From positions 64,001-128,000 of the IMG/VR virus record IMGVR_UViG_3300027972_000007: DNA of 64,000 nt; one strand, given 5' to 3'. The stretch comes from a virus. Shown here piece by piece: positions 11,361 to 46,707 of this stretch. How positions within the stretch are numbered: the stretch's first letter is position 1; each line of letters opens with the position of its first letter. The notes under the pieces are model-generated. The model was not told the DNA's origin. It made no database searches and worked only from the letters and a program-made list of their open reading frames with translations. A program made the position numbers and the translations under genes.

Positions 11361-11448
11361 TGGTGCCCAAGACCGGACTTGAACCGGTACGGTACTAAGT
11401 ACCGAGGGATTTTAAGTCCCTTGTGTATGCCAATTCCACCACTTGGGC
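11361..11448 (-). tRNA. trnL: tRNA-Leu (UAA), CCA encoded
   Basis: GCCCAAG acceptor, AGGGA-CTTAAAA-TCCCT anticodon arm, long variable arm, GTTCAAGT T-loop, 3' ACCA. Confidence 0.97.
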
Positions 11449-11615
11449 TTTTAAAGATATTTAAATAATGTCAATGTCAATCCCATAGCCATTAAAAATA
11501 TATTAATACCTGGGATTGCTCGTTTATGAATAATGAGCAAAGTATTAATCGTAAAAAACCAAATAAACAAAAAAAATCCAATAAATTGAACTATTTCTTG
11601 AAACATATTTACTCC

Positions 11616-12929
11616 CTATTCATAACGCAGCCAACTATAATTTTCTTGTATATATTTTATTGCTTCTTCTTTTGAATTAATAATTTCTTCCAGTTGTTTA
11701 TCTTCTATATCGGAAAATATAACTTTAAATATCTTTCCTTGTATAAAACCCAAACTTAATAAATCAAAACCAGTTATTAGACGAGTTGGTTTTATTTGTT
11801 CAGGAGGAATTTCATCCATTTTTTTAATTATGAAATTATAATTATCAAGATTTTTATTTGAAGCCGAACAATCGCAATAATGCAAAATTAAATGTTCGTC
11901 AAAATTAGGAATTCTAATAAATCTTTTCAATTTTGCCATTCTCATATTTTGTACGAATCTAAATTTCATGTGATTTTCAATTAATGAAACAACTCTTTCA
12001 ATAAAAGAATTTGAAAATTTCATTCTTTTTAACATTTCATTTGCCAATTTTGCTCCAACTTCGTCGTGTGAATTAAATCTGATTCTCGTATCTATATAAA
12101 AAGTATTTGGTTTTCCTATATCATGTAATAACGTACCCATTAATAATTCATCGGAAACATTAATGGGAAGATTTTCTAACGCTTGAATAGTATGTTCAAA
12201 AACATCTCCCTCAGGATGAAATTGTATTGGTTGTTGAATATTTTTTAAATTATGAACTTCGGGCAATATATATTTTAGAATATTAGTTTCATAAAGGAGA
12301 TTGAATATTTTTCTTGGTTTATGGAGCCTCAACATTTTTAATAATTCTTCTGAAATTCTTTCAACTGATATATTTACTATTTCTTCTGCATGATTTTTTA
12401 TTGAATAAAAAGTATTTGTTTCGATTTCAAAATCAAATTTTACTGCAAATCTAATTGCACGTAAAATTCTCAATTTGTCTTCCTGTATTCGTTTTTCTGG
12501 ATCGCCAATAAAACGAATTATTTTATTGTTCAAATCGTATTGACCACCAACGAAATCTATTATCTTATCTTCAATAGGATCAAAGAACATTCCGTTGATA
12601 GACAAATCTCTTCTCAAAGAATCTTCTTTCATTGAGCTGAAAGAAACAGAATCCGGTCTTCTATTATCAGTATAATTTCCATCATTTCTAAAAGTTGCAA
12701 CTTCAAATTCTGTATTATCGATTACTACTATAATAACACCAAAAGATTTTCCAACTGGAATAGTCTTATCGAAAAGTTTTTCGACTTGGTCGGGCGTTGC
12801 ATTAGTGGCAATATCTATATCATTTGATTCTATTCCGAGAATCATATCACGAACACAACCACCAGCAAACACGGCTTGAAAATTATTTTCATTTAACTTT
12901 TTTATTATTGCCAATGCTTTATTTTTCAT
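11616..12929 (-). CDS. cca: CCA tRNA nucleotidyltransferase with HD domain
   Basis: GGCVRD, DIDIAT, EVATFR, RRDLSIN, EDKLRILR, LLHDIGK. Confidence 0.95.
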   Translation of the reverse strand: MKNKALAIIKKLNENNFQAVFAGGCVRDMILGIESNDIDIATNATPDQVEKLFDKTIPVGKSFGVIIVVIDNTEFEVATFRNDGNYTDNRRPDSVSFSSMKEDSLRRDLSINGMFFDPIEDKIIDFVGGQYDLNNKIIRFIGDPEKRIQEDKLRILRAIRFAVKFDFEIETNTFYSIKNHAEEIVNISVERISEELLKMLRLHKPRKIFNLLYETNILKYILPEVHNLKNIQQPIQFHPEGDVFEHTIQALENLPINVSDELLMGTLLHDIGKPNTFYIDTRIRFNSHDEVGAKLANEMLKRMKFSNSFIERVVSLIENHMKFRFVQNMRMAKLKRFIRIPNFDEHLILHYCDCSASNKNLDNYNFIIKKMDEIPPEQIKPTRLITGFDLLSLGFIQGKIFKVIFSDIEDKQLEEIINSKEEAIKYIQENYSWLRYE

Positions 12930-13827: not shown

Positions 13828-14748
13828 TTAACACCTTATATTAGGATAATTATCTTCAAACCAATCAATTGTTTTATCTAATCCTTGCGGCAAAGGTGTA
13901 AAAGAGAATGATGGGTATAAAGAATTTAATTTTGAAACGTCTGACGGTTTTCTTTTTTGCCCATCTGGTTTTGTTTTATCAAAAATTATATTGCCTCTAA
14001 AATTCATTTTTTCTGCTATCATTTCTACTATTTTTGCAATACTTATTTCATTACCATTCGAAAATATTATCGGACTTTCTTCGTTGTAATAATTTAATGC
14101 CCACATAGATAAACGAGCTATATCAAAAGAGTATATAAATTCTCTTAATGGTTCTCCACTACCCCATATTACAAAATCTGTATTGTTCATTTTTGCTAAA
14201 TAACATTTATGAATTAATGATGGTATTACATGACCGTCTGTTAAACTGAAATTATCATTAGGGCCATATATATTAGTTGGAATTACTGTAATAAAATTAC
14301 ATCCATATTCTTTTCTATATGCTAAACTCTGTACTTCTAACATTCTTTTAGCATACGCATAAGCGAAATTTGATGGATGTGGCGGCCCATTATGCAAATC
14401 CTTTTCATTTAATGGATAATTACATTTATCAGGAAATACACAAGTAGACATAAATGAAACTAATTTTTTTACTCCTGCTAATCTCGCACATTCTAAAACA
14501 TTAAAATTAATCATAGTATTATCAGCATAAAATTTTCCTGGGCATTCACTATTAATTCCAACCCCGCCAACCTTAGCAGCAAGATGAATGATATGAGTAG
14601 GTTTGATATAATTAAAAATTGTTTTCGTTTCTTCAAAATTTCTTAAATCAACATATTTATGGGAAAGATAACAAGTGTCATAAAAATGTAATTCTTTCAT
14701 AGCATGGCCAACCAACCCATCTGCTCCTGTTATTAATAATTTACCCAT
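13828..14748 (-). CDS. fcl: GDP-L-fucose synthase
   Basis: TGADGLVG, HLAAKVGG, YAYAK, PTNIYGP, WGSGEPLREF. Confidence 0.92.
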   Translation of the reverse strand: MGKLLITGADGLVGHAMKELHFYDTCYLSHKYVDLRNFEETKTIFNYIKPTHIIHLAAKVGGVGINSECPGKFYADNTMINFNVLECARLAGVKKLVSFMSTCVFPDKCNYPLNEKDLHNGPPHPSNFAYAYAKRMLEVQSLAYRKEYGCNFITVIPTNIYGPNDNFSLTDGHVIPSLIHKCYLAKMNNTDFVIWGSGEPLREFIYSFDIARLSMWALNYYNEESPIIFSNGNEISIAKIVEMIAEKMNFRGNIIFDKTKPDGQKRKPSDVSKLNSLYPSFSFTPLPQGLDKTIDWFEDNYPNIRC

Positions 14749-14750
14749 TT

Positions 14751-15776
14751 TTAATCCTTTTTATTATATAATAATTTTTGCCATTTTATGGTTTTCTTTA
14801 ACCCATCATTTAATTTTGTAAATGTTGGATTAAATTCATTTTTTATTTTATCAATATTCAAACCCACTTCTGAAGGCGATCCGTCCAACGATAAATTAGT
14901 ATTTAATTTAACTGGTGCATTTAATATATTTCCTATATTATTTGCCAAGTCAAGAATCGAGATTTTTTCATTCCCGCCAACATTATAAAGTCTTTCTTTT
15001 CCTTCAAATAATATTTTCCACAATAATTCAATCGCATCAGAAATATATATGTATGTTCTTTTTGCTAATCCTAAATCTAATAATTGAATTTTTTTCTTGA
15101 GTATTGCATTTCTAATAAATGTATTTAATACTCTCTCGTCATTTTTACGAGTCCCCATACCATACGCTAAAGCAAGTCGAATACTTTTTACATCAAAATT
15201 ATCTTTATAATTATCTACTATTGTTTCACCGCATCTTTTACCTTCAATGTAACATGCCCTCGGATGATATGGGTCGCTTTTTCCAATATTCTTTTCTTCA
15301 GGATTTGTATATAAAAGTCCACTATACACTTCACTCGAACTTAAGAAAAGAAATTTTCCATTACTTTTTAAATTTTCAAAAAGATTGAAAAGAACTGAAG
15401 TATTCAATTTCAATGTTTTTATTGGATCAGCAAGAAATTTTCCTGGTTGCCCATAAGTGGCTGCATGTATAATAATATCATAATGTGAGTTACATTTTTC
15501 AATAGTTAAATCAAAAGAACTAACATTACATGAGCTAAAATTATACAAATCTTTCAATTGTTCGTTTCTATTAATCGCTCTTACAATAAAATTACAATTA
15601 TATTTCTTGTTTAAAACATGTAAACACGCAATTAAATTAACGCCAATTAAACCACTTGCGCCAGTTATTAATATTGATTTTTCATTAATATTATTAACAA
15701 ACAAATCAACATTATTATCAACTATCTTTTCTGCTTCAGCATAAATCATTTTACTCAATATATTCATATTACTCAT
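14751..15776 (-). CDS. NAD-dependent epimerase/dehydratase (UDP-glucuronate decarboxylase-like)
   Basis: TGASGLIG, SSSEVY, YIEGK. Confidence 0.85.
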   Translation of the reverse strand: MSNMNILSKMIYAEAEKIVDNNVDLFVNNINEKSILITGASGLIGVNLIACLHVLNKKYNCNFIVRAINRNEQLKDLYNFSSCNVSSFDLTIEKCNSHYDIIIHAATYGQPGKFLADPIKTLKLNTSVLFNLFENLKSNGKFLFLSSSEVYSGLLYTNPEEKNIGKSDPYHPRACYIEGKRCGETIVDNYKDNFDVKSIRLALAYGMGTRKNDERVLNTFIRNAILKKKIQLLDLGLAKRTYIYISDAIELLWKILFEGKERLYNVGGNEKISILDLANNIGNILNAPVKLNTNLSLDGSPSEVGLNIDKIKNEFNPTFTKLNDGLKKTIKWQKLLYNKKD

Positions 15777-20502: not shown

Positions 20503-22422
20503 TTACATATTAATCATCTTAAAAAAATCACTTTCACTTAATATTTCCACTCCCAATTTTTTAGCTTTTTGGGTTTTAGAACTTACTGAATTAGGATCTG
20601 CCACAACCAAATAACTTAATCCTTTTTTAACTGATACTTCAACCACGCCGCCGTTTTCTAAAACAATATCCCACATATTTTCACGGGTTAATCTTTTTCC
20701 GTCTTCGCATCGCTGTATTGCACCAGTAAAACAAAAGGATTTTCCTTCTAAATTATTATTCATAGCCTTTTTTCTTTCTATTTGTTTAATGGTAATAACT
20801 TTCAATAATTTTTCAATAATAATTTTTTTATCATTCAATCCATTTATAATCTGATCTGCAGTTTTTTCGCCAATTCCTGATATTTTTACTAATTCTTCTT
20901 TTGATAAATTTTGTATTTTATCAATAGTATCATAACCAGATTTAATAATAGATTCGGCAGTTTTGCCCGAAAAATTTGGCATATTCAAACCAGAAATAAA
21001 TTGCGGAATTGTGATTTCTTTTTTCGAATTAATATTTTCGAGAAGTTTATTGGTTGATCTTTCACCCATTCTTTCAAGTTTTAGAATATCTTCTTTTTTC
21101 AAAGTATATAAATCTGCAGGATCTTTAATTAAAGAATGTTTATATAATTGTTCTATAATTTTATCGCCAACATCCATAATTTCAATACTGTTAATCCATT
21201 TATTAATATTGCCCAGCATCAATCCGTCACATTTCGGGTTTTTGCAAACTAAATATTCTCCTTCAATGGTTGTTTTATCATTACATATTGGACAATATAT
21301 AGGAAATTCAATTTTTTTACTTTTTTCGTCTGAAAATATTACTTTTTCGAAGTATGGAATTACATCATTGGCTCGTTTTATTTGGACTTTATCATTATAT
21401 CTCAAATTATGAACTAGAAATGTGTTCACATTATGTAATGTTACATGAGTAATATTTACTCCGCCGCAAGGAACTTTTTCTACAATTGCAACAGGTGTTA
21501 TTCTTCCAGAATTTCCTAAACTCCATTCAACATCTAACAACGTAGTTTCGGCGCTCATAGCTTCAAATTTCCATGCAATTGCTGCTTTTAAATTAGCTCC
21601 AAGAAACCCATGTTTTTCTTGTAACTTAATATTATTACATTTTATGACTAAACCGTCGATGTCATATTTTGTCTTTGCTCTCAAATAATTTTCAAAATTA
21701 TGAAAGATTTCTATAACATGTTCTTTTTTAGCTAATTCATGAAAACAGATTTTAATTTCATTTTTATCAAAAAACAAAAACTTTTCACTTTCCGAATCGA
21801 CATCAATGCCAATAATATCGTAATGAAGCACTGACAAGTATTCCGACCAGTTTCTGTCAAATCTTTTTGCAATACCATTTGCTGCATTGCGAGGATTGGA
21901 AAATTCTTTTTCTTCATTTTCTCTTTTGATTCTATTTATTTCTTCAAAATCCTCTCTTAAAAGAAATATTTCTGCCCTTAATGAACCTGTAAAATTTGGA
22001 ATATTCTTTTTCACATTTTTCATTTTCAGAACATTAGATAAAATCATTTCACCTTCTATACCATCTCCTCTTGTTGTTGCTGCTACCAGATTCCCATTTT
22101 TATAATCTAAAGAAAGCGAAGCCCCATCTAATTTATCCATAACCATATAATATTCGTCATTAATTTCATTTGCCCACTTAGTAAATTCTTCAACAGAATT
22201 TACTTTATTGAGCGAATACATAGGAATAGTGTGTTTATATTTTTTCCATTCTGTCATTTCAACATTTGCGCCAATTTGTTTAAGATAAGGATCCTCCGGG
22301 TTTATTTTTCTTAAAATATCTTTATGTATATCATATTCTTTATCACTCATTGTAGAATTTGATAAATTATAATATGCATTATCAGCTGCTATAAGAGTAT
22401 TCCTGATTTCATTTACGTTCAT
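20503..22422 (-). CDS. ligA: NAD+-dependent DNA ligase
   Basis: KLDG adenylation motif, TRGDG, NPRNAA, DGLVIK, Zn finger, HhH, BRCT. Confidence 0.97.
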   Translation of the reverse strand: MNVNEIRNTLIAADNAYYNLSNSTMSDKEYDIHKDILRKINPEDPYLKQIGANVEMTEWKKYKHTIPMYSLNKVNSVEEFTKWANEINDEYYMVMDKLDGASLSLDYKNGNLVAATTRGDGIEGEMILSNVLKMKNVKKNIPNFTGSLRAEIFLLREDFEEINRIKRENEEKEFSNPRNAANGIAKRFDRNWSEYLSVLHYDIIGIDVDSESEKFLFFDKNEIKICFHELAKKEHVIEIFHNFENYLRAKTKYDIDGLVIKCNNIKLQEKHGFLGANLKAAIAWKFEAMSAETTLLDVEWSLGNSGRITPVAIVEKVPCGGVNITHVTLHNVNTFLVHNLRYNDKVQIKRANDVIPYFEKVIFSDEKSKKIEFPIYCPICNDKTTIEGEYLVCKNPKCDGLMLGNINKWINSIEIMDVGDKIIEQLYKHSLIKDPADLYTLKKEDILKLERMGERSTNKLLENINSKKEITIPQFISGLNMPNFSGKTAESIIKSGYDTIDKIQNLSKEELVKISGIGEKTADQIINGLNDKKIIIEKLLKVITIKQIERKKAMNNNLEGKSFCFTGAIQRCEDGKRLTRENMWDIVLENGGVVEVSVKKGLSYLVVADPNSVSSKTQKAKKLGVEILSESDFFKMINM

Positions 22423-22496: not shown

Positions 22497-22895
22497 TTAT
22501 ATATTAAGTAAATTTAAATTCATTTCACATATCATATTTGTTCTTTTATCAGAACGAAATATCATTTTTTCTATTTTTAATTTTGTTTTATCTTCAGCTT
22601 CAACGATATAATAAGATATATCCTTCGCTATATCATAAGGAAGCAATTGCTCTAATTGGTTTTTTGAAAATAATTTATAAGTAACTCTATTTTCAAATTT
22701 TTTATCAGTTAAACGAAAAAGCAAATTATCAATTCTTTTTCTTACTATTTTTAGTGCTTCTTTTTTCGAAAAAATATCAGCTTTTAAAAATGGTTTAGCA
22801 TACGCCATCAATAAATTATTATCGTGCTTTTGAAACATAACAGTATATTTAGGTACTGAATTGCCATCTCTTCCATGAAAAATAATTTCTTTCAT
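22497..22895 (-). CDS. hypothetical protein
   Basis: AAGGAG RBS. Confidence 0.75.
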   Translation of the reverse strand: MKEIIFHGRDGNSVPKYTVMFQKHDNNLLMAYAKPFLKADIFSKKEALKIVRKRIDNLLFRLTDKKFENRVTYKLFSKNQLEQLLPYDIAKDISYYIVEAEDKTKLKIEKMIFRSDKRTNMICEMNLNLLNI

Positions 22896-22907: not shown

Positions 22908-23504
22908 TTATTTGTACAAATTATGTTTATTAATATAATTAGCTACATTCTTTGATACTAATTCTTCGAACTCAATATTATGTTTAATATTTTCTCTTAT
23001 TTTTGTACTAGAAATATTGAAAATTATTTTTTTATATACTTCAAAATTAGAAGATAATTCTCTATTAATATGATACTGATCCCTTCGTATAACTAAAAAA
23101 TCAAATTCCTTCATCAATCGAACACCTTCGTACCATTTCGATTCTATTTCACACTTCCCGTTTTTCTGAAATATTAAATCAGATCCAATTATAAATTTCA
23201 ATTTAGTCTGATGAAATTCTTCTTTTAATTGTCTTAACATTAGAATCGAAAAAGTATTTGTTGAATAAACATTATTGTAACGAATAATAAATTCAGTTTT
23301 ATAATTAAAATCTCTAAATTTTCCGAATGCTAATTCAGACATATTTACTCTATGATCAGGACAAACATATTTTTTATCATTTCTTTCTCCTGATAAAATT
23401 AAAATAATTTTTTCGAATACTTCGTCGTCCATTAAATTTGATATTAATGCTTCGTGACCTATATGTGGAGGATTTGCAGAAATTCCTAATATTCCTATCA
23501 TCAT
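22908..23504 (-). CDS. nadD: nicotinate/nicotinamide-nucleotide adenylyltransferase
   Basis: SANPPHIGH (HIGH), IIGSD, ISSTKIR. Confidence 0.9.
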   Translation of the reverse strand: MMIGILGISANPPHIGHEALISNLMDDEVFEKIILILSGERNDKKYVCPDHRVNMSELAFGKFRDFNYKTEFIIRYNNVYSTNTFSILMLRQLKEEFHQTKLKFIIGSDLIFQKNGKCEIESKWYEGVRLMKEFDFLVIRRDQYHINRELSSNFEVYKKIIFNISSTKIRENIKHNIEFEELVSKNVANYINKHNLYK

Positions 23505-24331
23505 TCACCATCCCATGAAAAAATATTTTCTCTCGAAAAATTATATGGATTTTTTCTTTTAAATTCTGAATTAAAATGTCGTTCAACTACCGCATCTGGA
23601 AGAAAAAAACTATCTGTTTCAATATAATTTTGCAAAATTTTATCAACTTCTTCATATGCATTTCTACAATTTTGAAACTTTTTATTCCAGTTTGGCATTA
23701 TTTGGTCTAAATCAGAATTTGTTATACCTAATCCGTCAGTGGGAATTGCATCAATGCAATCTTTTAATCCTTCTGAATGATTAATAGAATATAAATATTC
23801 TGATAAAGTATAAACTTCAGTTTTCCAAAGTGATTGAATCATACCCAAATCACCCACATCGCCATGCAAAGTCCAAAATCCAAGCAAATATTCTGTATAA
23901 TTATCGGTAGAAAGAACAAGACCTTTTTTATCGCCTGCAATCCAATATAAATATTTCATTCTTATTCTAGCCTTTAAATTTCCTTGGGCTATTTTTGACA
24001 TTATAACATATTCTGAAACTTCAAAAACTCTCTTTTCTTCTAAATATAAATTTGTTAAATCTGCTTCTGCAAAACTTGTGCATAATTCATAACCTACCAA
24101 TCTTGCTCTTTTAATTTCATCATCTTTATTAGTTTCAATTGGTATACTTCTCCCTATTAAAGGAATATTCAATTTATCGCAAACTGGTTTTGCTATTGCA
24201 CAACATAATGCACTATCAATTCCGCCACTAACTCCAATAACCAAACATTTAATATGATGCTGTTCAATATAATTTATTAATTCTTTTCTAATATTGAATG
24301 TTAATTTTTGCATATCAATAAAAACATTCAT
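23501..24331 (-). CDS. nadE: NH3-dependent NAD+ synthetase
   Basis: GVSGGIDS, GNLKARIRM, TLHGD; no glutaminase domain. Confidence 0.93.
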   Translation of the reverse strand: MNVFIDMQKLTFNIRKELINYIEQHHIKCLVIGVSGGIDSALCCAIAKPVCDKLNIPLIGRSIPIETNKDDEIKRARLVGYELCTSFAEADLTNLYLEEKRVFEVSEYVIMSKIAQGNLKARIRMKYLYWIAGDKKGLVLSTDNYTEYLLGFWTLHGDVGDLGMIQSLWKTEVYTLSEYLYSINHSEGLKDCIDAIPTDGLGITNSDLDQIMPNWNKKFQNCRNAYEEVDKILQNYIETDSFFLPDAVVERHFNSEFKRKNPYNFSRENIFSWDGE

Positions 24332-24339: not shown

Positions 24340-26019
24340 TCATTTCATTGTTACATAATATAATTTTTTATCATCAACAAACAGTACTTGCATTTGTTCG
24401 TTATATAATCTTACTGATGCATCAAAAGGACAATTTGTTATTTCTTTTCTTTTTATATTGTCAATAAATATTATCAATTTTTCATCGTCAATAGAAATAC
24501 AATAATTATTTGGTAAAACAATAAAATTCGATAAATGAAAATTTAAAATATCTTCTACCCTTATTGTATACTTTGAATGATCTGCATTAAAACAAATAAA
24601 AAATCTTAAATATTTATTTAGTTTTTCCGCAATTACAATACAAATTCTTTTATCATATTTAGCGTCTACAATTCTGTATCCATCCAATTCTTTAACATGA
24701 ATATTTACACATTTATCTTTTTCAAATGGAATTGCTAAATGACAAACCATAAAATCATCCTGAACGACTACTCCTTTAAACATTTTATATGATGAACCAA
24801 TATTGCAAATATTCTTTGTCATATGAACGATTTTACCAATACGTTCAAAAGTATTTTCTATGAGATGATTATTATTTATTGTATAAAGAATATTATTATA
24901 CCCCATCATATCTTCTGCTTGTATTGAACTAATATTACTACCATTTAAATCATAAAATGTTGCTAAATTATCTATTAATTGAACTACAAGAGGTTTGTCA
25001 TTAAAAACTTCGCACATTCCAGTCAAAAATGATTTTGCAGATTTTTTTATTGCAAAAACATTTTTATTATTATCATAAATTCCTTCTGATGTTAAAATAT
25101 AACGTTTATTATTTAAATAAAAAATACTTCTTATCTGTTTTTCCATTTCAACAATTTCTTTTATGATAAAATCATCAGAACTTCCAATCTTTCTAGTTAT
25201 AATTCCAGAAACAGTATCGTCTGCGAATGGAGGTATTGATCTTTCATTTTTTTGAAATACTAATTTATACCAATCTAATTGTGCTTTAGGAATAACTGAA
25301 AAATCCTGGCATATTTTAGGAAGAATTACATCTTTATCAAAAACTGAAATTCCTAAATCCATCCTTTTACTCCATTCGTCGGGCTTAAATTTTGGGTGTT
25401 TACCTTTATAAGGATGGATTCCAGTATACATCTGAAACGTAACAACAGCCCATGCAAACCAATCAGATAATTCTGTAAATTTATCTGTCGTTCTGTCTCG
25501 TATTGATTCCATAATTGCATTAACTTTAAAATTTTTTGTCTGCCACGAATCAACATCAATATGAAAAACTGTTGTTATCATCTTATCAAGAAGAAAATTC
25601 ATTTCATTATAATCAACTACTAAAATTTTATTATCATGAATATACTGTAACGTTTTTTGCATTTCTGTTATTAATGAAACAATATTTGTCTGATTTATTC
25701 CTTTACTGTCTTTGAAATTTTTTGTAAAAATTTGACAAAGAAATTCAATATCTTTGACAAATTTCATAGTAAATCCTATAGGTTTATTTGTCGTATAATC
25801 ATATAATGTAGATATTGGACCTAAAATATTATCGCGTTTCAATTCACTTAATTCTTGAATTTTAGCTTCTGGTATCATTTTTTGTGGGTCGTGGTATATT
25901 TTATACGCTAAATCTCCCTTACAAAAAACAACTCCCTGCCCACCTGCTGCTTTATATTCTTTTTCAGTAAGAGTTATGATATTTTTTTTATCGGTGACTT
26001 TGTATGTTGTTTTATTCAT
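24340..26019 (-). CDS. Ser/Thr protein kinase, TerY-P (YegI-like) type, with C-terminal beta-rich domain
   Basis: GGQG loop, AYKIY, VDYNEMN, IDVDS, SDWFA...HPYKG. Confidence 0.88.
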   Translation of the reverse strand: MNKTTYKVTDKKNIITLTEKEYKAAGGQGVVFCKGDLAYKIYHDPQKMIPEAKIQELSELKRDNILGPISTLYDYTTNKPIGFTMKFVKDIEFLCQIFTKNFKDSKGINQTNIVSLITEMQKTLQYIHDNKILVVDYNEMNFLLDKMITTVFHIDVDSWQTKNFKVNAIMESIRDRTTDKFTELSDWFAWAVVTFQMYTGIHPYKGKHPKFKPDEWSKRMDLGISVFDKDVILPKICQDFSVIPKAQLDWYKLVFQKNERSIPPFADDTVSGIITRKIGSSDDFIIKEIVEMEKQIRSIFYLNNKRYILTSEGIYDNNKNVFAIKKSAKSFLTGMCEVFNDKPLVVQLIDNLATFYDLNGSNISSIQAEDMMGYNNILYTINNNHLIENTFERIGKIVHMTKNICNIGSSYKMFKGVVVQDDFMVCHLAIPFEKDKCVNIHVKELDGYRIVDAKYDKRICIVIAEKLNKYLRFFICFNADHSKYTIRVEDILNFHLSNFIVLPNNYCISIDDEKLIIFIDNIKRKEITNCPFDASVRLYNEQMQVLFVDDKKLYYVTMK

Positions 26020-26861
26020 GATTTAGTAAATACTTGTTTGTTAAAAATTGTAGAAATTGAAACATCGTCATAATGTGTCCACAAATTCTCTATTGATTTT
26101 TTAAAAAATGACATTCGTTTTTTAATAAACTCGCCCGTTGTTGATTTAAAATTTATAATTTGAGGAACAATTTTAGAAATTTCTATTGAATTTTTATTTA
26201 AATCTCTATATGAACAAACACCATCAGAACAAATTGTTAAAGAAACAAAATCTTCCGCGTATTTTGAATGAAAAATATATGGCGTGAAAAATTCAAATTC
26301 TTCATATTCTTTTTCTATTTTTGAATCAAAACCCGAAATATGCGTTATTTCATAATTAACTTTTGGAACGATTGATCGATTAATTAGTGCGTCTGAATAA
26401 TCATCTTTATTTGTTGACAAATAAAATGGCATATTATTTGGATAATCTATTTTTGTTATTTTAATATTATTATTTTTATCTTTTAAAATTACCAGCCCGT
26501 CTCCCCAAGCAAAAACATAAATATCATTTTCTATTTGTAGTGAAATAAGCAATGTAGCTTGTAATGATAATGAAGAAACTGAATATAATTTATGTAAAAC
26601 GTCTGCTCTTTTTAAAATACTATTACCCAATAATCTAGATAATGTTTGTTCTGAACACTCTTTAAACAAACCGGCTTTATAATAAAGTATTAAACAGCAT
26701 TTTGCTGCATGGCATAAAATTTGAGCCCCAATTTCAGAATATTCTGCTGACGAACACCCATCAGAAATAATTCCGTATGTCATTTTATCTACAGTTCCAT
26801 GCAATACATAATCTTGGCAAACTAAATGTGAATTGCCAATTTCAGAATATGAATCAATCAT
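26016..26861 (-). CDS. PP2C-like protein phosphatase (YegK-like)
   Basis: HLVCQD, SDGCSS, GDG, CSDG, DDVS. Confidence 0.88.
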   Translation of the reverse strand: MIDSYSEIGNSHLVCQDYVLHGTVDKMTYGIISDGCSSAEYSEIGAQILCHAAKCCLILYYKAGLFKECSEQTLSRLLGNSILKRADVLHKLYSVSSLSLQATLLISLQIENDIYVFAWGDGLVILKDKNNNIKITKIDYPNNMPFYLSTNKDDYSDALINRSIVPKVNYEITHISGFDSKIEKEYEEFEFFTPYIFHSKYAEDFVSLTICSDGVCSYRDLNKNSIEISKIVPQIINFKSTTGEFIKKRMSFFKKSIENLWTHYDDVSISTIFNKQVFTKS

Positions 26862-26917
26862 ATTTTCTCCTAAATATAGGTCTTTATATTCCTATAAAAA
26901 CCCATATAAATTTCGTA

Positions 26918-27694
26918 CTAAAATTTAAAATCTATTGGCTGGGATGCTCCGCCAGTTCCGAGTGCTTGAGACGTCGAAGAAACACTTTGTGAAATAAATT
27001 GTGCTAATTTAGCCAATTTCTTTTCGGAAACTTCGCCGACTGAAATATATTCATCTATTCCAGCATCATTTTTAAAAGTTTCTAAACACTTTTTAAAATG
27101 AGGATCGGTATCATTAACACCAATTAAAATGACCTTAATTGACTCCATCACCTCTTCTTTTTTTATTGCATTAATTGCTTCTTTCACGTCTGAAGTAAAA
27201 GATTTTGACGCATTGTCGTCGCCGTCAGTAATAACAAAAATAATGGCATTGGCATTAAAAACATTTTCTCCGTCATACAATTTTTTTGCATAATCTCTTG
27301 TCGTGTCAATTGCTTCGAGAGTTGCATCATACAGCGGAGTACTCCCACTTGGCTGAATAGTATTTTTAAAATTTACTGTATCTATTGTACTCAACAATGT
27401 AAATCCATGTATTTCTTCAATATCGCTATTGCGTCTGCCTGAATTTGCACTAAATGCGGTTGTTCTTGCAAGAAGATTTAAAGATCTCGGAGATCTTTTG
27501 CAAGATTCCATACAAGCTATTAACATCTGTTCCAACAAATCTTTAAACGGTTCAACCGAACCGGTTTTATCAACGACATTAGTGACAAAAGTGTATTCTG
27601 TTGCGCCGAGTTTATCAACAGAAATAGTAGTATAACCAAAACCTTGAAGGGTCTGGCTAACTTCGGTTGCATCAACTCCCATTAATTTTGGCAT
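26918..27694 (-). CDS. vWA domain protein (TerY-like)
   Basis: DKTGS MIDAS, TPLYDA, ITDGDDNAS. Confidence 0.88.
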   Translation of the reverse strand: MPKLMGVDATEVSQTLQGFGYTTISVDKLGATEYTFVTNVVDKTGSVEPFKDLLEQMLIACMESCKRSPRSLNLLARTTAFSANSGRRNSDIEEIHGFTLLSTIDTVNFKNTIQPSGSTPLYDATLEAIDTTRDYAKKLYDGENVFNANAIIFVITDGDDNASKSFTSDVKEAINAIKKEEVMESIKVILIGVNDTDPHFKKCLETFKNDAGIDEYISVGEVSEKKLAKLAQFISQSVSSTSQALGTGGASQPIDFKF

Positions 27695-27744
27695 AAAATT
27701 TCCTCCAATTAATTTTTAAATGTTATTAAAATTTACTTTTCAAT

Positions 27745-28569
27745 TTAAAAGAATGATGTCGTCGTGGAAATCTGCATTCCTTTTTGTTTGTACTCATCGA
27801 TGAAACTTTCTCCCATAAACTCACAACCAGGAACATTCGACGTCGCATCTTTAAGCAACACAAATTTCTTAATCTGGTCTGCAGAAAATTCAGAAAAAAC
27901 ATCGCGCATTGTATTTGCAAAACAGTGAGATAATGCTTCGCCTGCACCGAGAATAACATCATATTTTTTCAATATATTAATAAAAGGGGTATTTAATCTT
28001 GTCAATGGGTCATTAGGATCTTCGACATCGGCTTTCACTGCGCTATAATGTTCTGTAAAAGGATTTGATCCTTTTGTTGTTCTTGGCGCAACAGCATGAA
28101 ATCTATCTTCCCATTGATCTACTGCTTGTAGAAAAACAGATTCCAAACATTGTCCTGGTGAGCCAATTATACAATGTTCAGGCCAAATCATCAGTTTATA
28201 ACGCTTATTGTCGTCCAGAGCTTTCAAATATTTGAGATATCTTGCTTGAAAATCTGGATTATATGCTCTCCAATCACCTTTTTCAGCCATTTCATAAGTT
28301 AAGAAAGTAGGAACTGTGCTGCCTGAATTTAAAAAGATTGGCAGTGGATGCTTACCAGAATTATTTACCCAACATCTTGCATGTGCAATGTGAACCTTAT
28401 AATGACTATCCATCGTAATTTGAATTTCTTCAATATCGTCTCCATATTTTTTAATCATGGTTGCCAATCTCTTCATGTCTTCATCTGCACCAGGCACAAA
28501 CAAATTACCTTTTGGATTGCAGAAATCAAATTGTGGGTCGATTACCAACAAACAAACCTTTTTATTCAT
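27745..28569 (-). CDS. pncA: nicotinamidase / isochorismatase-family cysteine hydrolase
   Basis: IDPQFDF, DSH, WPEHC, TKG, ALSHC (D-K-C triad). Confidence 0.88.
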   Translation of the reverse strand: MNKKVCLLVIDPQFDFCNPKGNLFVPGADEDMKRLATMIKKYGDDIEEIQITMDSHYKVHIAHARCWVNNSGKHPLPIFLNSGSTVPTFLTYEMAEKGDWRAYNPDFQARYLKYLKALDDNKRYKLMIWPEHCIIGSPGQCLESVFLQAVDQWEDRFHAVAPRTTKGSNPFTEHYSAVKADVEDPNDPLTRLNTPFINILKKYDVILGAGEALSHCFANTMRDVFSEFSADQIKKFVLLKDATSNVPGCEFMGESFIDEYKQKGMQISTTTSFF

Positions 28570-28592: not shown

Positions 28593-29765
28593 TTAAAATA
28601 TTTTCAAAATTTGTTTACATAGTTTTATTGTTTCAATATCGCCAGTATTTTTATTGGGGTCGTCTGATAATTTAACTGATTTTACCCATAAACCATCAAC
28701 CACACATTCAGTTAATTTAATAACAATATTTAGTGGTTTTGCTCCCACATCATTGGTAAACCATGTACCAACTCCATAAAAATCGTTTATAAAACCATTA
28801 CATGCTTTATGAATTACAGAAATTTGTGAAACACTTTTTAAATTATCTGAAAAAACTATTTGTTTCGTCTGCGAATCAATACTCAAATTATGATACTTCG
28901 AAATTATTTTTCTAGCAAATTCTATCGGATCGCCGCTATCTTGTCTAACTCCATCAAAAATTCTTGCATATAATGAATCAAAACTATTTAAAAAATTATT
29001 AGTAGTAAAAGTATCAGGTAAAGCAATACCTAAATTTCCTTTATAAACATCTACCCAATTTTTCATCGCCATTCGATTTGCCCACTGGAACCCGAAGCGT
29101 GCTGCATGAAATTGAGTCCATTCATGTGCTTGAGTTCCTATAGGTAATATATCAAATTCTTTTGCGATACTTAAATTGCTCGACCCAAATAAAAAATTTC
29201 CATGCTCAATAAAATCTCTAACAACATTAAAATGATTATTATAAGAAAATCTTCTTCTAGTACCAAAATCTGTAATAACAACATCAAGTTTATTTAATTC
29301 TTTTGCTTTTCTCTTATTATATAATCTCAAATCTTCTGCAGATTTTTGTGTTCCTGCAGTTTTTTCAAAATAAAGTTGAGATATAGTTGCCATTAAAGGC
29401 ACTTCCCAAAGAATAGTTCTATACCAGTAACCTTCGATATGAATTTTTAATTCTGAACCAACTTGTTCGATTATTACTTCGCTCGGATCATATTCATAAC
29501 CATCGAGAAAATCTAAATAAAATGGATTTAAATAATAACATTTCTGTCTTAAAAACTTCTTTTCTTCTTTTGTTAATTTAATTCCTCTGAAAGTTTCAAC
29601 TATTCGTTTTAATTCGTCTGCAAAACCATTAGGAAATGATCTATTATCCCTATTAAAAAATTCATATCTTACTACTTTATCTGGATATAATTTGCATACT
29701 GCATTTTGCATTGTAAATTTATATAAATCATTATCTAAAAAATCATTCACATATCCATTACTCAT
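28593..29765 (-). CDS. pncB: nicotinate phosphoribosyltransferase
   Basis: DLYKFTM, DFGTRRR, GTQAHEW, RQDSGDP, FSD. Confidence 0.95.
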   Translation of the reverse strand: MSNGYVNDFLDNDLYKFTMQNAVCKLYPDKVVRYEFFNRDNRSFPNGFADELKRIVETFRGIKLTKEEKKFLRQKCYYLNPFYLDFLDGYEYDPSEVIIEQVGSELKIHIEGYWYRTILWEVPLMATISQLYFEKTAGTQKSAEDLRLYNKRKAKELNKLDVVITDFGTRRRFSYNNHFNVVRDFIEHGNFLFGSSNLSIAKEFDILPIGTQAHEWTQFHAARFGFQWANRMAMKNWVDVYKGNLGIALPDTFTTNNFLNSFDSLYARIFDGVRQDSGDPIEFARKIISKYHNLSIDSQTKQIVFSDNLKSVSQISVIHKACNGFINDFYGVGTWFTNDVGAKPLNIVIKLTECVVDGLWVKSVKLSDDPNKNTGDIETIKLCKQILKIF

Positions 29766-39747: not shown

Positions 39748-40803
39748 CTATAAAAAATTAATATCCATTTCATCTTTTGGATTTTTAATAAAATCTAAAA
39801 ATTTATTAATTTCACATAATTTACAACATACCTGGCAATACTTAAAATAATTTAATTTTCTAACAAAATCAATAGATTTCTTTCTTTTTATTGATTTCCA
39901 TATTTCTTCTAAACTATTTTCGTATATATTACCAAAAGTGAAATTTTCATTATTTGGATGATACATACACACTTTAACGTCTCCGTTAGCATTTAAAATA
40001 GGTTCAAAAAAGTGACCGTCACACACTTTAAATGGAAATAAATTCTTTTCTTTTAAATCTGTAAATTTATCTAAACTTAAATTGATTTTTTTATCACTTA
40101 TTTTTTTAATATAATTCCATACTTTATTATTTAAACTAATTTTTTCATTCTTAAAAAATCTTGGTAATACTGGTCTAAATTGAATATATGAACAATCATT
40201 CTTCAATAACAAAATATCTTCTATATCTTTAATGCTTGTTTTATTGCTAACATTACAATTAATTCCTAATTTTATTGGATATTTTTTTAACAATTTTATA
40301 TTTTTTAAAACTATATCGACTGCATCAATCCCTTTATATTTTTTATATTTTTTCTTATCAATAAAATCTAATGATATTCTAACCCATTTAAAATTATTTC
40401 CAATAATTGGTATTAATCTCTCATTAAAAACTCCATTAGTCATTAATCCAATTTCTAATCCAACATCAATACAATGTTCAACTATTTTTTCAAAATAATG
40501 ATGTAAAGTTGGTTCGCCTCCACCAGAAAATGTAACTGCTTTTCCACCCAATATTTTAAATTCAGTTAAAAATTTTAATAGTTCTCTAATTTTTAATTCT
40601 TGTATATTATTATTTCTATTTTCAGAAATACACCACGAACATTTTAAATTACATCTATCAGTTAGATTCAACTCCATAAAAATTGGAAATGTATCACCGG
40701 ATAAAATATATTGGGAAACTCTGTCTGAATGAAATAACATTTTTGCCTGTGAAGCAAAAGGATTATTCCCAAATTCTAAATATGTATTAAAATTACTTTT
40801 CAT
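39748..40803 (-). CDS. radical SAM protein with SPASM/twitch domain
   Basis: CNLKCSWC, SGGGEP, TNG, GNI...IW, CxxC. Confidence 0.92.
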   Translation of the reverse strand: MKSNFNTYLEFGNNPFASQAKMLFHSDRVSQYILSGDTFPIFMELNLTDRCNLKCSWCISENRNNNIQELKIRELLKFLTEFKILGGKAVTFSGGGEPTLHHYFEKIVEHCIDVGLEIGLMTNGVFNERLIPIIGNNFKWVRISLDFIDKKKYKKYKGIDAVDIVLKNIKLLKKYPIKLGINCNVSNKTSIKDIEDILLLKNDCSYIQFRPVLPRFFKNEKISLNNKVWNYIKKISDKKINLSLDKFTDLKEKNLFPFKVCDGHFFEPILNANGDVKVCMYHPNNENFTFGNIYENSLEEIWKSIKRKKSIDFVRKLNYFKYCQVCCKLCEINKFLDFIKNPKDEMDINFL

Positions 40804-40812
40804 TAAAAAATT

Positions 40813-41067
40813 TCATTCACCAATTTTATATTTTTTAACTAAATCTATTAAATCTTTTACTGTTTCTATTGCATTTAAACTAAAAATATCTTCAGCTAAT
40901 TTAATATTATATTGATACTCTAAATCTGAAATAAAATCTCTTTGTGCATAAGAATCAAAACTCAAAATATTTAAATACATATTTTCCTTTATTTCTTTTA
41001 CTTCTTTATAAAGAACTTCAGCCAATATACCCTTTACTATTTTGGAAATATTCATATTACCTTTCAT
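40813..41067 (-). CDS. acyl carrier protein-like
   Basis: 84 aa; FDS putative phosphopantetheine Ser, LE...I.L, TVKDLID. Confidence 0.65.
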   Translation of the reverse strand: MKGNMNISKIVKGILAEVLYKEVKEIKENMYLNILSFDSYAQRDFISDLEYQYNIKLAEDIFSLNAIETVKDLIDLVKKYKIGE

Positions 41068-41336
41068 TATTTTATTTTTTGTTTCTGAAGCAAATCAATC
41101 ATTTCATTATATTTTTTTATAACATATTCTTTTAATGGTTCATAATCGTCTTTATCTTCAAGAAATTCTCTTTCTTCGTTTTCTGAACTCCAAATAATAT
41201 TATCTAAAAATTTTATAAGACAACAAAAACCATTAGAACAAAATTCTAATGTATTTTCTTTTAGTTCATCTTCTAGTATCGACCAATTTAATTCAGCAAC
41301 AATTTCTAAACATTCTAATTCTTGTTTGAAATTCAT
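41067..41336 (-). CDS. acidic hypothetical protein
   Basis: Coupled ORF. Confidence 0.7.
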   Translation of the reverse strand: MNFKQELECLEIVAELNWSILEDELKENTLEFCSNGFCCLIKFLDNIIWSSENEEREFLEDKDDYEPLKEYVIKKYNEMIDLLQKQKIK

Positions 41337-41341
41337 AATAA

Positions 41342-42295
41342 TTACCTTTCATTACATTTTTCTATTTCATATTGTCGAATAACTTTTTTAATGCCTTCAG
41401 TTATCGTTATTTTTTGCTGCCAACCAAGTTCAATTAAAGGTGAAATATCACAATAAAAATCATCAATACCAACAGCTTTATGAAAATCTGGTGATTCAAC
41501 TATTTCGACTTTACCTTTTCCTGATTCTTTCAAAATAATATCGACTAAATTTCTTAAAGAAATAGACCTGCCATAAGAAACATAATAAATTTGATCTAAT
41601 GAATTTCTACCTTTTTGTTCTATTATTTCTAATGCGCTAATCACATCATCAATATAGATATAATCCCTTTTTATTTTACCGTTATCATACAGTTTTATTG
41701 TATCATTACTAACTGCTAACCATATCATTCTATTAAATGCTGCTTTTTTATTATTAGTATTTTGTTCCCCAATTCCGAAAACATTTGATAATCTCGCAAT
41801 TTTAGTTTTTAAACCAAATACTCTTGCGTATGTATTAATAATATGTTCTGCACATAATTTAGTTGCACCATATAAACCTAATGGATTTTCTTTGATTCTA
41901 TCAGTTACTGGCAATATTTCAGGATTCCCATTAACAAAAAAAGTACTCGTAAATATTATTTCTGCTTCTGGATTATGATTTCTACATGCTTCTAATAATG
42001 CTATAGTACCAAGAATATTTGTTTTTACGTCTATATATGGTTTATCAAAAATATTATAATTATCAACCGTAGAAGCGCAATGGAATATTTTATCAATTCC
42101 TTTTATATCGCATTTTTTAATATTTCTAACATCTTTTTCTATTACATTTATTTTATCTTCAAATCCTTGCAGATTATTTTTTGGACTTTTTCGAGTAATA
42201 ATAGTTACATTATGTCCTTTATTGATATATTTTTTGGCTAAATGTGAACCTATAAAACCTTTTCCGCCAGTAATTAAAATATTCATTTTATCCAC
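41342..42295 (-). CDS. NAD-dependent nucleotide-sugar epimerase/dehydratase
   Basis: TGGKGFIG, YGATK, RDYIY. Confidence 0.9.
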   Translation of the reverse strand: MDKMNILITGGKGFIGSHLAKKYINKGHNVTIITRKSPKNNLQGFEDKINVIEKDVRNIKKCDIKGIDKIFHCASTVDNYNIFDKPYIDVKTNILGTIALLEACRNHNPEAEIIFTSTFFVNGNPEILPVTDRIKENPLGLYGATKLCAEHIINTYARVFGLKTKIARLSNVFGIGEQNTNNKKAAFNRMIWLAVSNDTIKLYDNGKIKRDYIYIDDVISALEIIEQKGRNSLDQIYYVSYGRSISLRNLVDIILKESGKGKVEIVESPDFHKAVGIDDFYCDISPLIELGWQQKITITEGIKKVIRQYEIEKCNER

Positions 42296-45939: not shown

Positions 45940-46130
45940 GTTGCGCGATTTAGGAGGTTGCCTCCATAATTTCAGCGGTGCGGGGCTTACGGCTATATAA
46001 GGGTGGCCGGATTCATACGCCAGCACGCCTTCCCGACTTCGAGCATATAGCAACCCCTGGCAGCCGTCAACCCTAATGCTGTCTATCGCACAGCCTATAA
46101 TCATAAAAGCAACCTCTTATTTCGCGCAAC
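45940..46130 (-). ncRNA. cassette 7: probable non-coding structured cassette
   Basis: GTTGCGCGA/TCGCGCAAC ends; GAGGTTGC/GCAACCTC, ACGGCT/AGCCGT and GCTATAT/ATATAGC pairings. Confidence 0.4.
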
Positions 46131-46293
46131 GACTGGCTATGCCTGAAGTTGCCGCTTTACAATATCTAACATAGCTTTCGCGCCTGCCATATACCATCGT
46201 ACTAACAGCGGATCATTATTTTTTCGCAAACCACCGGATAATTCTTCCTTATATTTGCTGAATAACGGCAATTTTAGGCATGTTTTGTTGGTG
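46124..46293 (-). repeat. attC-like site F
   Basis: CACCAAC...ATGCCT..TTGCCG / CGGCAA..AGGCAT...GTTGCGC. Confidence 0.7.
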
Positions 46294-46654: not shown

Positions 46655-46707
46655 GTTTCTGTTCCTTTCTTGGCGCGGCATATAACTTAAAAAGTCAAGG
46701 CTATTGC

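What the first reader, a model, noticed from the sequence alone, without database searches (positions are those of the whole stretch)
24340..28569. TerY-P-type vWA / PP2C / kinase triad nested inside the NAD+ operon
Seen: order pncB-pncA-vWA-PP2C-kinase-nadE-nadD, with short gaps and overlaps (PP2C/kinase overlap; 8 nt from kinase to nadE). Established: vWA + PP2C + Ser/Thr kinase is the TerY-phosphorylation triad (YegL/YegK/YegI-like), known as a bacterial anti-phage system. Inference: a phage-borne phospho-switch coupled to NAD+ salvage. It could regulate the NAD enzymes, sense NAD/nicotinamide status through the PncA-like protein, exclude competing phages, or jam host TerY-P. The kinase has a roughly 280-aa beta-rich C-terminal domain that may act as a sensor.
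Basis: partly seen in the sequence, partly recalled or inferred. Interest (0 to 1): 0.85.

Follow-up and report, generated by a model that had tools for sequence, protein, structure and literature searches.

The report
Kinase-switch cassette around phage nicotinamidase
A large phage carries a full nicotinamide-to-NAD+ recycling operon whose first enzyme belongs to a fixed four-gene unit (nicotinamidase, metal-binding vWA adaptor, phosphatase, sensor kinase) that recurs in over 100 phages and in bacterial chromosomes, which suggests that protein phosphorylation gates NAD+ recycling.

Summary
On the minus strand lie pncB, a PncA-like nicotinamidase, a vWA protein, a PP2C phosphatase, a kinase, nadE, nadD, a small unknown ORF and an NAD-dependent DNA ligase. 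Gaps run from -4 to 74 nt.

The reading needs reframing. The triad is not an insert in an NAD operon. The conserved unit is four genes, PncA-like > vWA > PP2C > kinase.
- All four genes are present in 87 of 106 non-redundant viral loci.
- They are present in most of 72 bacterial loci, including Armatimonadota chromosomes where they sit among housekeeping genes next to the genome's only pncB.
- pncB, nadE or nadD lie within 8-10 kb in 44 of 106 viral loci. In five huge phages that lacked them nearby, nadE is present elsewhere in all five.
- The ADP-ribose-sensing repressor NrtR is a frequent fifth neighbour, but it is absent here.

The triad is remotely YegL/PphC/YegI-like (TerY-P type). Its kinase, however, ends in a beta-propeller, not the zinc ribbon or OB-fold described for TerY-P. 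Catalytic residues of all four proteins are conserved, and so is a Ser-rich vWA tail.

The best reading is a phospho-switch on the nicotinamidase step of NAD+ rebuilding. The mechanism is inferred, not shown. I found no paper describing it. This scan has met the same cassette on other DNA several times.

The parts
28593..29765 (-). pncB, nicotinate phosphoribosyltransferase (390 aa)
   Evidence: PF04095 and PF17767. NF003704 scores 407 bits against a cut-off of 379.
27745..28569 (-). PncA-like nicotinamidase (274 aa, P0001). A divergent isochorismatase-fold amidase with an insert of about 60 aa. First gene of the four-gene cassette.
   Evidence: No Pfam hit. Weak matches to yeast Pnc1 2h0r and to NF008623. 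Invariant in 25 relatives: D11, K166, C216 (catalytic triad positions) and D54, H56, H132 (metal site). Some relatives are named nicotinamidase by JGI or hit PF00857.
26918..27694 (-). TerY/YegL-like vWA protein (258 aa, P0002) with a MIDAS site and a Ser-rich C-terminal tail
   Evidence: PF00092 scores 21.5 bits, below threshold. hhalign to E. coli YegL gives 77% probability, E 2e-5. MIDAS residues D42, S46, T119 and D157, and tail residues S235, S237, S239, S242, T247 and S251, are at least 90% conserved in 125 proteins.
26016..26861 (-). PP2C-family phosphatase (281 aa, P0003)
   Evidence: PF13672 scores 55 bits against a cut-off of 24. Metal-binding Asp D17, D34, D121, D213, D265 and D266 are at least 90% conserved in 128 proteins.
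25225..26019 (-). Kinase domain (residues 1 to about 265) of the YegI-like Ser/Thr kinase P0004
   Evidence: hhalign to YegI gives 97.8% probability, E 7.7e-13. Invariant G26, G27, K40, E56, D136, N141, D155. The AlphaFold2 model has pLDDT 90 and matches kinase folds.
24340..25182 (-). C-terminal beta-propeller domain (residues about 280-559) of the kinase, with its stop codon. Putative sensor or docking domain.
   Evidence: The AlphaFold2 model of the domain alone has pLDDT 91.6 and is all-beta, with about seven four-stranded blades. Foldseek hits are WD40, BamB and beta-TrCP propellers. The full-length model best matches the kinase plus WD40 part of LRRK2.
23501..24331 (-). nadE, NH3-dependent NAD+ synthetase (276 aa)
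   Evidence: PF02540. TIGR00552 scores 121 bits against a cut-off of 64.
22908..23504 (-). nadD-like nicotinate-mononucleotide adenylyltransferase (198 aa)
   Evidence: PF01467 scores above threshold. TIGR00482 scores 97.6 bits, below its 112 cut-off.
22497..22895 (-). Unknown 132-aa ORF between nadD and the ligase
   Evidence: No hit in Pfam, PHROGs or NCBIfam. Not found in the first ten related loci.
20503..22422 (-). NAD+-dependent DNA ligase (639 aa), an NAD+ consumer encoded 74 nt downstream of the operon
   Evidence: PF01653, PF03120, HhH and BRCT domains. A ligA gene also lies near the cassette in 7 of 106 viral loci.

Best explanation
The region encodes a four-gene functional unit: a divergent nicotinamidase, a TerY/YegL-like vWA protein, a PP2C phosphatase, and a YegI-like Ser/Thr kinase fused to a beta-propeller. 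In this phage the unit sits inside a complete deamidating route from nicotinamide to NAD+ (PncA-like, PncB, NadD, NadE), followed by an NAD+-dependent ligase.

Proposed working (inferred):
1. The nicotinamidase converts nicotinamide to nicotinate. Nicotinamide is the product of NAD+ cleavage, including cleavage by host NADase defences.
2. The phage's own PncB, NadD and NadE rebuild NAD+ from that nicotinate.
3. The kinase and PP2C form an opposing pair that writes and erases phosphate on the conserved Ser-rich tail of the vWA protein, and possibly on the nicotinamidase.
4. The vWA protein uses its MIDAS site as the adaptor that holds or releases the nicotinamidase.
5. The kinase's beta-propeller receives the input signal, which is unknown.

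Shown here: gene content, intact catalytic residues, the fold of the kinase, strict co-inheritance of the four genes, and their genomic tie to NAD salvage in phages and cells.

Inferred: enzyme activity, the phosphorylation target, physical contacts, the signal, and the benefit to the phage (NAD+ supply or a counter to NAD+-depleting immunity).
For: Co-inheritance of the four genes:
- Starting from kinase relatives, 57 of 76 distinct viral patterns have exactly PncA-like > vWA > PP2C > kinase. Most of the rest are permutations that keep the pairs PncA-like+vWA and PP2C+kinase together.
- Starting from PncA-like relatives, 76 of 80 viral loci carry the triad genes downstream.
- After de-duplication, all four genes are present in 87 of 106 viral loci.
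- The cassette is also in most of 72 bacterial loci with GC 0.27-0.70.

Tie to NAD salvage:
- In a Capsulimonadaceae chromosome the cassette lies between leuB/leuA and cysN/cysD-like genes, with pncB directly downstream.
- In 3 of 5 large bacterial genomes the only NAPRTase gene lies in the cassette locus.
- NrtR (Nudix plus NrtR_WHD) is the next most common neighbour: 23 of 106 viral and 22 of 72 bacterial loci. NrtR is the ADP-ribose-responsive repressor of pncA/pncB regulons (PMC2330246).
- Five huge phages with no pncB or nadE within 10 kb of the cassette all carry nadE elsewhere, and three carry a NAPRTase above cut-off.

Active sites and fold:
- Catalytic residues are intact in the nicotinamidase, kinase and PP2C, and the vWA MIDAS site and Ser-rich tail are conserved.
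- The Ser-rich tail aligns with the tail of E. coli YegL.
- The kinase fold and propeller are modelled with high confidence.
Against: - No biochemical datum exists for any member of this cassette. Nicotinamidase activity is inferred from residues only, and the window protein fails the PF00857 and NF008623 thresholds.
- The phosphorylation target is a guess based on the TerY-P model and tail conservation.
- More than half of the viral loci have no pncB, nadE or nadD within 8-10 kb, so the cassette can work without an adjacent pathway.
- NrtR, common elsewhere, is absent from this 170-kb record, which is estimated 74% complete.
- Many 'bacterial' hits are MAG contigs, and some of them may be mis-binned phage DNA (for example L167 and L225, GC about 0.27-0.28).
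Confidence: 0.55

Rival explanations
1. The vWA/PP2C/kinase triad is a self-contained TerY-P-type defence or superinfection-exclusion system that the phage carries as cargo. Its position among NAD genes is incidental.
For: - The triad is homologous to YegL/PphC/YegI and has the same gene order.
- TerY-P-like modules have been reported as stand-alone anti-phage systems (Gao et al. 2020, as summarised in PMC11090510).
- Large phages often carry exclusion genes.
Against: - The triad is almost never found without the PncA-like gene in 178 loci, and the reverse also holds.
- In bacteria it lies among housekeeping genes with the sole pncB and behind NrtR, not in a defence island.
- The kinase ends in a beta-propeller rather than the OB-fold or zinc ribbon of described TerY-P kinases (PMC11090510).
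Confidence: 0.1
2. The cassette's output is removal of nicotinamide (or of a related pyridine amide), not NAD+ synthesis. Examples would be relieving nicotinamide inhibition of NAD+-consuming enzymes, or denying nicotinamide to a competitor's NadV-type salvage. The switch would fire the amidase only on a signal.
For: - Many phage loci carry the cassette without a nearby pncB, nadE or nadD.
- One huge phage record (G009) showed no NAPRTase at all.
- ADP-ribose-related genes (NADAR, Macro) occur near some cassettes.
- That nicotinamide is a product inhibitor of sirtuin-type enzymes is general knowledge, not tested here.
Against: - In this phage, and in many others, the cassette is contiguous with the rest of the Preiss-Handler pathway.
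- All five huge phages checked carry nadE.
- In bacteria the cassette is operonic with the only pncB. This fits salvage flux better than disposal.
Confidence: 0.15
3. The vWA protein, with the kinase/PP2C pair controlling it, is an assembly or metal-loading factor for the metallo-nicotinamidase rather than a signal-responsive switch.
For: - The PncA-like and vWA genes form the tightest pair: median gap 42 nt, and they stay together in permuted loci.
- The metal-site residues of the amidase and the MIDAS site of the vWA protein are both conserved.
- That vWA proteins act as co-chaperones in several metal-cofactor systems is general knowledge, noted for MoxR-vWA pairs in PMC7824862.
Against: - No AAA+/MoxR ATPase accompanies the cassette in the neighbour clusters.
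- A reversible kinase/phosphatase pair and a propeller domain are more typical of signalling than of maturation.
Confidence: 0.1

Closest known systems
TerY-P triad (TerY-like vWA + PP2C + Ser/Thr kinase; Anantharaman, Iyer and Aravind 2012, as summarised in PMC11090510). E. coli example: yegL-pphC-yegI.
   Same: - Three components in the same order, vWA > PP2C > kinase.
- Kinase family to YegI: hhalign 97.8% probability.
- vWA family to YegL: 77% probability, including the Ser-rich tail.
- Both phosphatases belong to PF13672.
- The MIDAS motif is conserved.
   Different: - An obligate fourth gene, a nicotinamidase-type amidase.
- The kinase ends in a beta-propeller of about 280 aa, not a zinc ribbon (CoCoNuT-linked triads) or an OB-fold (defence-type triads).
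- The context is NAD salvage and NrtR, not Ter genes, restriction systems or defence islands.
- It is found mainly in large phages.
PncA/Pnc1 nicotinamidases (isochorismatase-like cysteine hydrolases; for example 2h0r, 1im5, 3pl1)
   Same: - N-terminal D-x-Q-x-D-F motif, D-x-H metal motif, W-P-x-H-C motif, and catalytic Lys and Cys positions are all conserved.
- It sits next to pncB, as in classical pncA-pncB operons (PMC2330246).
   Different: - 274 aa against about 180-215 aa, with an insert of about 60 aa between the metal motifs and a C-terminal extension.
- Too divergent for PF00857 or the PncA equivalog model.
- Always paired with a vWA gene.
Phage NAD+ reconstitution pathways NARP1, NARP2 and NARP3, and 'NAD-jumbo phage' Preiss-Handler clusters (bioRxiv 10.1101/2024.02.11.579819; PMC13464706; PMC11662467)
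   Same: - A phage-encoded complete route to NAD+.
- pncB-nadD-nadE clusters and NAD-dependent ligases are already reported in jumbo phages.
- A counter-defence role against NAD+ depletion is plausible.
   Different: - The route starts from nicotinamide by deamidation (PncA-like). It does not use ADPR (NARP1), NadV/NMN (NARP2) or PnuC/NadR (NARP3).
- None of these papers mentions a kinase, phosphatase or vWA component.
- No experimental test has been done for this route.
NrtR regulons of pncA-pncB (Rodionov et al. 2008, PMC2330246)
   Same: In 45 related loci an NrtR gene accompanies the cassette. In 15 bacterial loci it lies directly upstream of the PncA-like gene.
   Different: - This phage record has no NrtR.
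- The published regulons list no signalling genes.

Membership tests
TerY-P triad | TerY/YegL-type vWA protein with a MIDAS motif | tested here: met
   hhalign of A3 against YegL gives 77% probability, E 2e-5. D42, S46, T119 and D157 are at least 90% conserved. JGI labels several relatives 'YegL'. The Pfam VWA score is below threshold, so the match is remote.
TerY-P triad | PP2C-family phosphatase encoded beside the vWA gene | tested here: met
   PF13672 scores 55 bits against a cut-off of 24, the same family as E. coli PphC. The catalytic Asp residues are conserved. Pairwise BLASTP to PphC finds nothing.
TerY-P triad | YegI-type Ser/Thr kinase with intact catalytic residues | tested here: met
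   hhalign of A1 against YegI gives 97.8% probability, E 7.7e-13 over 311 columns. K40, E56, D136, N141 and D155 are invariant.
TerY-P triad | Kinase C-terminus is a zinc ribbon or an OB-fold (as described in PMC11090510) | tested here: not met
   The C-terminal 280 residues fold as a beta-propeller, pLDDT 91.6.
TerY-P triad | Recognised by anti-phage defence HMMs | tested here: inconclusive
   PADLOC gives only weak PD-T4-6 kinase hits and no TerY-P model. The control with E. coli YegL/PphC/YegI gives the same result, so the test cannot discriminate.
TerY-P triad | Protects cells against phage | not testable with these tools
   Needs plaque assays.
Nicotinamidase (PncA/Pnc1) | Catalytic Asp-Lys-Cys triad | tested here: met
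   D11, K166 and C216 are invariant in 25 relatives. Their positions match the PncA motifs in the alignment to 2h0r and 1im5 and in the sequence itself.
Nicotinamidase (PncA/Pnc1) | Metal site (Asp and His residues) that binds the pyridine nitrogen | tested here: met
   D54, H56 and H132 are invariant, and H63 is nearly so. The assignment to the metal site is by motif alignment, not by a structure.
Nicotinamidase (PncA/Pnc1) | Scores above curated family thresholds (PF00857, NF008623) | tested here: not met
   No PF00857 hit. NF008623 scores 24 bits against a cut-off of 174. Some relatives do hit PF00857.
Nicotinamidase (PncA/Pnc1) | Hydrolyses nicotinamide to nicotinate | not testable with these tools
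   Needs an enzyme assay.
Complete Preiss-Handler / deamidating salvage pathway | PncB, NadD and NadE all present | tested here: met
   PncB and NadE score above equivalog or subfamily cut-offs. NadD scores 97.6 bits against 112 for TIGR00482 but is above the Pfam threshold.
NrtR-controlled NAD regulon | NrtR gene (Nudix plus NrtR_WHD) in the locus or genome | tested here: not met
   No PF21906 match in the 170-kb record, and no tblastn match with NrtR from related loci. The record is an estimated 74% complete.

The most novel reading that the evidence does not exclude
The cassette is a signal-gated nicotinamidase, a previously unrecognised post-translational control point of NAD+ salvage shared by bacteria and large phages. 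The kinase's beta-propeller senses a product or consequence of NAD+ cleavage. Phosphorylation of the vWA tail then releases or activates the nicotinamidase. Phages use this to rebuild NAD+ from nicotinamide exactly when host NADase immunity fires, which would make it a fourth, regulated, deamidating NAD+ reconstitution pathway.
Probability: 0.3. Interest if true: 0.8.

Novelty: new variant of a known kind. Interest (0 to 1): 0.66.

Why it matters
NAD+ depletion is a major bacterial anti-phage strategy. Three phage NAD+ rebuilding routes have been shown experimentally, and none of them is the deamidating route or is known to be regulated.

A kinase/phosphatase/vWA switch that is inherited together with a nicotinamidase in over 100 large phages and in several bacterial phyla would be two things at once. 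It would be the first protein-phosphorylation control proposed for bacterial or phage NAD salvage. It would also give a concrete cellular role to a branch of the poorly understood TerY-P/YegI family.

The cassette is small and has clear active-site residues and candidate phosphosites, so it can be tested directly in laboratory strains.

Tried and rejected
- **Complex prediction** of the PncA-like protein with the vWA protein and the kinase propeller: no verdict. It counts neither for nor against binding.
- **PADLOC scans**: only weak PD-T4-6 kinase hits. I rejected this as a membership test because E. coli YegL/PphC/YegI behave the same way.
- **Megablast against GenBank phages**: no match. 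tblastn with the kinase found only three unannotated uncultured huge phages, so no cultured phage is available as a model.
- **Promoter and terminator scan**: 96 promoter-like sites against 92 expected, and no convincing terminator inside the operon. It is uninformative in this AT-rich DNA.
- **BLASTP of the PP2C against PphC**: nothing. The family assignment rests on Pfam.
- **Neighbour cluster 'u419'**: it turned out to be an antisense ORF over the PncA-like gene and was discarded.
- **Maximum-likelihood tree with a mixture model**: it did not finish, so a FastTree tree was used instead.
- **Anantharaman et al. 2012**: the paper could not be read. Its content is cited only through PMC11090510.
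- **Idea that the PncA-like gene is an ordinary pncA that merely neighbours the triad**: rejected because of the reciprocal co-occurrence.

Full report
**Setting.** The window is bases 64001-128000 of a 170-kb IMG/VR virus record that CheckV estimates to be 74% complete. GC content is about 26%, and almost all genes are on the minus strand. Neighbouring genes are typical of a large phage: a tRNA nucleotidyltransferase, nucleotide-sugar enzymes, a radical SAM protein and many ORFs with no known family.

**Observation.** All genes are on the minus strand:

| Gene | Coordinates |
|---|---|
| pncB | 28593-29765 |
| PncA-like | 27745-28569 |
| vWA | 26918-27694 |
| PP2C | 26016-26861 |
| kinase | 24340-26019 |
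| nadE | 23501-24331 |
| nadD | 22908-23504 |
| unknown 132-aa ORF | 22497-22895 |
| NAD-dependent DNA ligase | 20503-22422 |

Spacing is tight. PP2C and kinase overlap by 4 nt, kinase to nadE is 8 nt, and nadE and nadD overlap by 4 nt. The family calls are as follows:
- pncB and nadE pass curated equivalog or subfamily cut-offs.
- nadD is just under its equivalog cut-off but above the Pfam threshold.
- PP2C is a clear PF13672 member.
- vWA and kinase fall just below Pfam thresholds.

The PncA-like protein has no Pfam hit. It does carry the nicotinamidase motifs in its sequence and aligns weakly to solved nicotinamidases. In 25 relatives the residues at the catalytic Asp/Lys/Cys positions and at the Asp/His metal-site positions are invariant.

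**What the triad is.**
- *Kinase.* Profile comparison links the kinase family to E. coli YegI: 97.8% probability, E 7.7e-13. The two share unusual motifs around the catalytic loop.
- *vWA protein.* The vWA family aligns to YegL at 77% probability, E 2e-5, and the alignment includes the Ser-rich C-terminal tail.
- *Phosphatase.* It belongs to the same Pfam family as PphC.
- *Gene order.* E. coli has the same order, yegL-pphC-yegI.
- *Conserved residues.* The kinase catalytic residues are invariant. The PP2C metal-binding aspartates, the vWA MIDAS residues, and six Ser/Thr positions in the vWA tail are at least 90% conserved in about 125 non-identical proteins.
- *Kinase fold.* The kinase model is confident, with pLDDT 90. 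Its C-terminal 280 residues, folded alone, give pLDDT 91.6 and form a beta-propeller with only generic WD40/BamB-type matches. The full-length model best matches the kinase plus WD40 part of LRRK2.

According to PMC11090510, described TerY-P kinases end in a zinc ribbon or an OB-fold. This is therefore a TerY-P-like triad of a different sub-type. The PADLOC library gave no TerY-P hit, but it gave none for the E. coli prototype either, so that test says nothing.

**The unit is four genes, not three.**
- I fetched 82 viral loci around kinase relatives with 27-55% identity. Of 76 distinct arrangements, 57 have exactly PncA-like > vWA > PP2C > kinase. Most exceptions are truncated contigs or permutations that keep PncA-like with vWA and PP2C with kinase.
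- The reverse search, starting from the PncA-like family, found triad genes downstream in 76 of 80 viral loci.
- After de-duplication, all four genes are present in 87 of 106 viral loci, and at least three in 98.
- The canonical salvage genes are frequent but optional neighbours. pncB, nadE or nadD lie within the fetched 8-10 kb flanks in 44 of 106 loci.
- I checked five huge phage records in which these genes were missing nearby. All five carry nadE elsewhere in the genome, and three carry a NAPRTase above cut-off, mostly 10-30 kb from the cassette.

**The cassette is also cellular.** A scan of one genome per prokaryotic species found 72 loci, all in metagenome-assembled genomes. They come from Acidobacteriota, Armatimonadota, Thiotrichales, Myxococcota, Spirochaetota and others, with GC from 0.27 to 0.70, and most contain the same cassette. 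Some small, low-GC contigs may be mis-binned phage DNA, but several hits lie on contigs of 0.5-4.4 Mb.

In one Capsulimonadaceae chromosome the cassette sits between leucine-biosynthesis and sulfate-assimilation genes, with pncB immediately downstream. In three of five large bacterial genomes the only NAPRTase gene lies in the cassette locus.

An unbiased clustering of all neighbouring ORFs shows that the commonest fifth gene is NrtR, a Nudix domain plus the NrtR winged helix. It occurs in 23 of 106 viral and 22 of 72 bacterial loci, and in 15 bacterial loci it lies directly upstream of the PncA-like gene. NrtR is the ADP-ribose-responsive repressor of pncA-pncB and other NAD genes (PMC2330246). 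This phage record has no NrtR.

A FastTree phylogeny of the kinases shows phylum-coherent bacterial clades nested among phage sequences. Well-supported branches force at least seven changes between phage and bacterial labels. The window's kinase lies in an all-phage clade of six. The root is arbitrary, so no donor can be named.

**How it most likely works.** The following are shown:
- four intact active or binding sites;
- strict co-inheritance of the four genes;
- pairing of PncA-like with vWA and of PP2C with kinase;
- a genomic tie to NAD salvage in both phages and cells.

The rest is inferred. The amidase would convert nicotinamide to nicotinate. The kinase and PP2C would reversibly phosphorylate the conserved vWA tail, as the TerY-P model proposes, and possibly the amidase too. 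The vWA protein would couple that state to the amidase through its MIDAS site. The propeller would receive the signal.

In this phage the product would feed directly into the phage's own PncB, NadD and NadE, and the NAD+ made would serve, among others, the NAD-dependent ligase encoded next door. Such a pathway could simply supply NAD+ for replication. It could also rebuild NAD+ from the nicotinamide released by host NADase defences, as has been shown for other routes (NARP1 and NARP2, bioRxiv 10.1101/2024.02.11.579819; NARP3, PMC13464706). I put 0.55 on this overall reading. I put about 0.85 on the narrower statement that the four genes are one functional unit tied to NAD metabolism.

**Rivals.**
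- A stand-alone defence or exclusion triad (0.10) is hard to reconcile with the obligate amidase partner and the housekeeping context in bacteria.
- Nicotinamide removal as the real output (0.15) is not excluded for phages that lack the downstream enzymes.
- A maturation or scaffolding role for the vWA protein (0.10) lacks the usual ATPase partner.

**What is known.** Jumbo-phage pncB-nadD-nadE clusters and NAD-dependent ligases have been reported (PMC11662467). Surveys of NAD+/ADP-ribose systems in viruses and of jumbo phages do not mention a kinase, phosphatase or vWA link to nicotinamidase (PMC9503650, PMC7824862). Full-text searches for the combination found nothing relevant.

Earlier notes of this scan describe the same four-gene cassette on other DNA, in huge phages and in bacteria under NrtR. 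I reproduced their core claims independently here, but they are not independent evidence.

**What this window adds.** This example is a phage in which the cassette is embedded in a complete, contiguous deamidating pathway plus a ligase, without NrtR.

**Verdict.** This is a new variant of the TerY-P kind with an obligate nicotinamidase partner and a propeller-bearing kinase. Its function is inferred, and it is testable.

Noticed in passing
window 46001-48000: GC jumps to 0.425 against about 0.25 on both sides. The stretch holds several short minus-strand ORFs. Another first-stage note of this scan reads it as an integron-like cassette array. I did not examine it.
   Followed up: no
window 11361-12929: A tRNA-Leu(TAA) gene at 11361-11448 lies directly downstream of a tRNA nucleotidyltransferase (CCA-adding enzyme) gene at 11616-12929.
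   Followed up: no
window 13828-15776: Two adjacent nucleotide-sugar epimerase/dehydratase-like genes of 306 and 341 aa, both matching phrog_540. This suggests a phage sugar-modification pathway.
   Followed up: no
window 39748-43662: A radical SAM protein (39748-40803) and a 459-aa fusion of a HAD-like hydrolase with a domain of unknown function, phrog_3980 (42283-43662).
   Followed up: no
related loci, e.g. L092:630-1109, L138:5924-6523, L144:2856-4055, L026:3863-4687: Besides NrtR, recurrent neighbours of the cassette in phages are NADAR (an ADP-ribose-related domain), a calcineurin-like phosphoesterase, RtcB RNA ligase and Thg1-like proteins. A Macro-domain gene lies just downstream in a 398-kb NCBI contig. 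Of the neighbour clusters searched in this phage's 170-kb record (Macro was not among them), only the phosphoesterase was found, about 9 kb upstream of the window start.
   Followed up: partly
L209:11710-13932 and 17 other bacterial loci: In Acidobacteriota the kinase gene is followed by a 740-aa protein with an N-terminal SAM-methyltransferase domain. This gene is found only in bacterial loci.
   Followed up: no
L099:7110-7967 and 16 other loci: LAGLIDADG-type homing-endonuclease-like ORFs are inserted in or beside the cassette in several phage loci. This may explain some of the long gaps between cassette genes.
   Followed up: no
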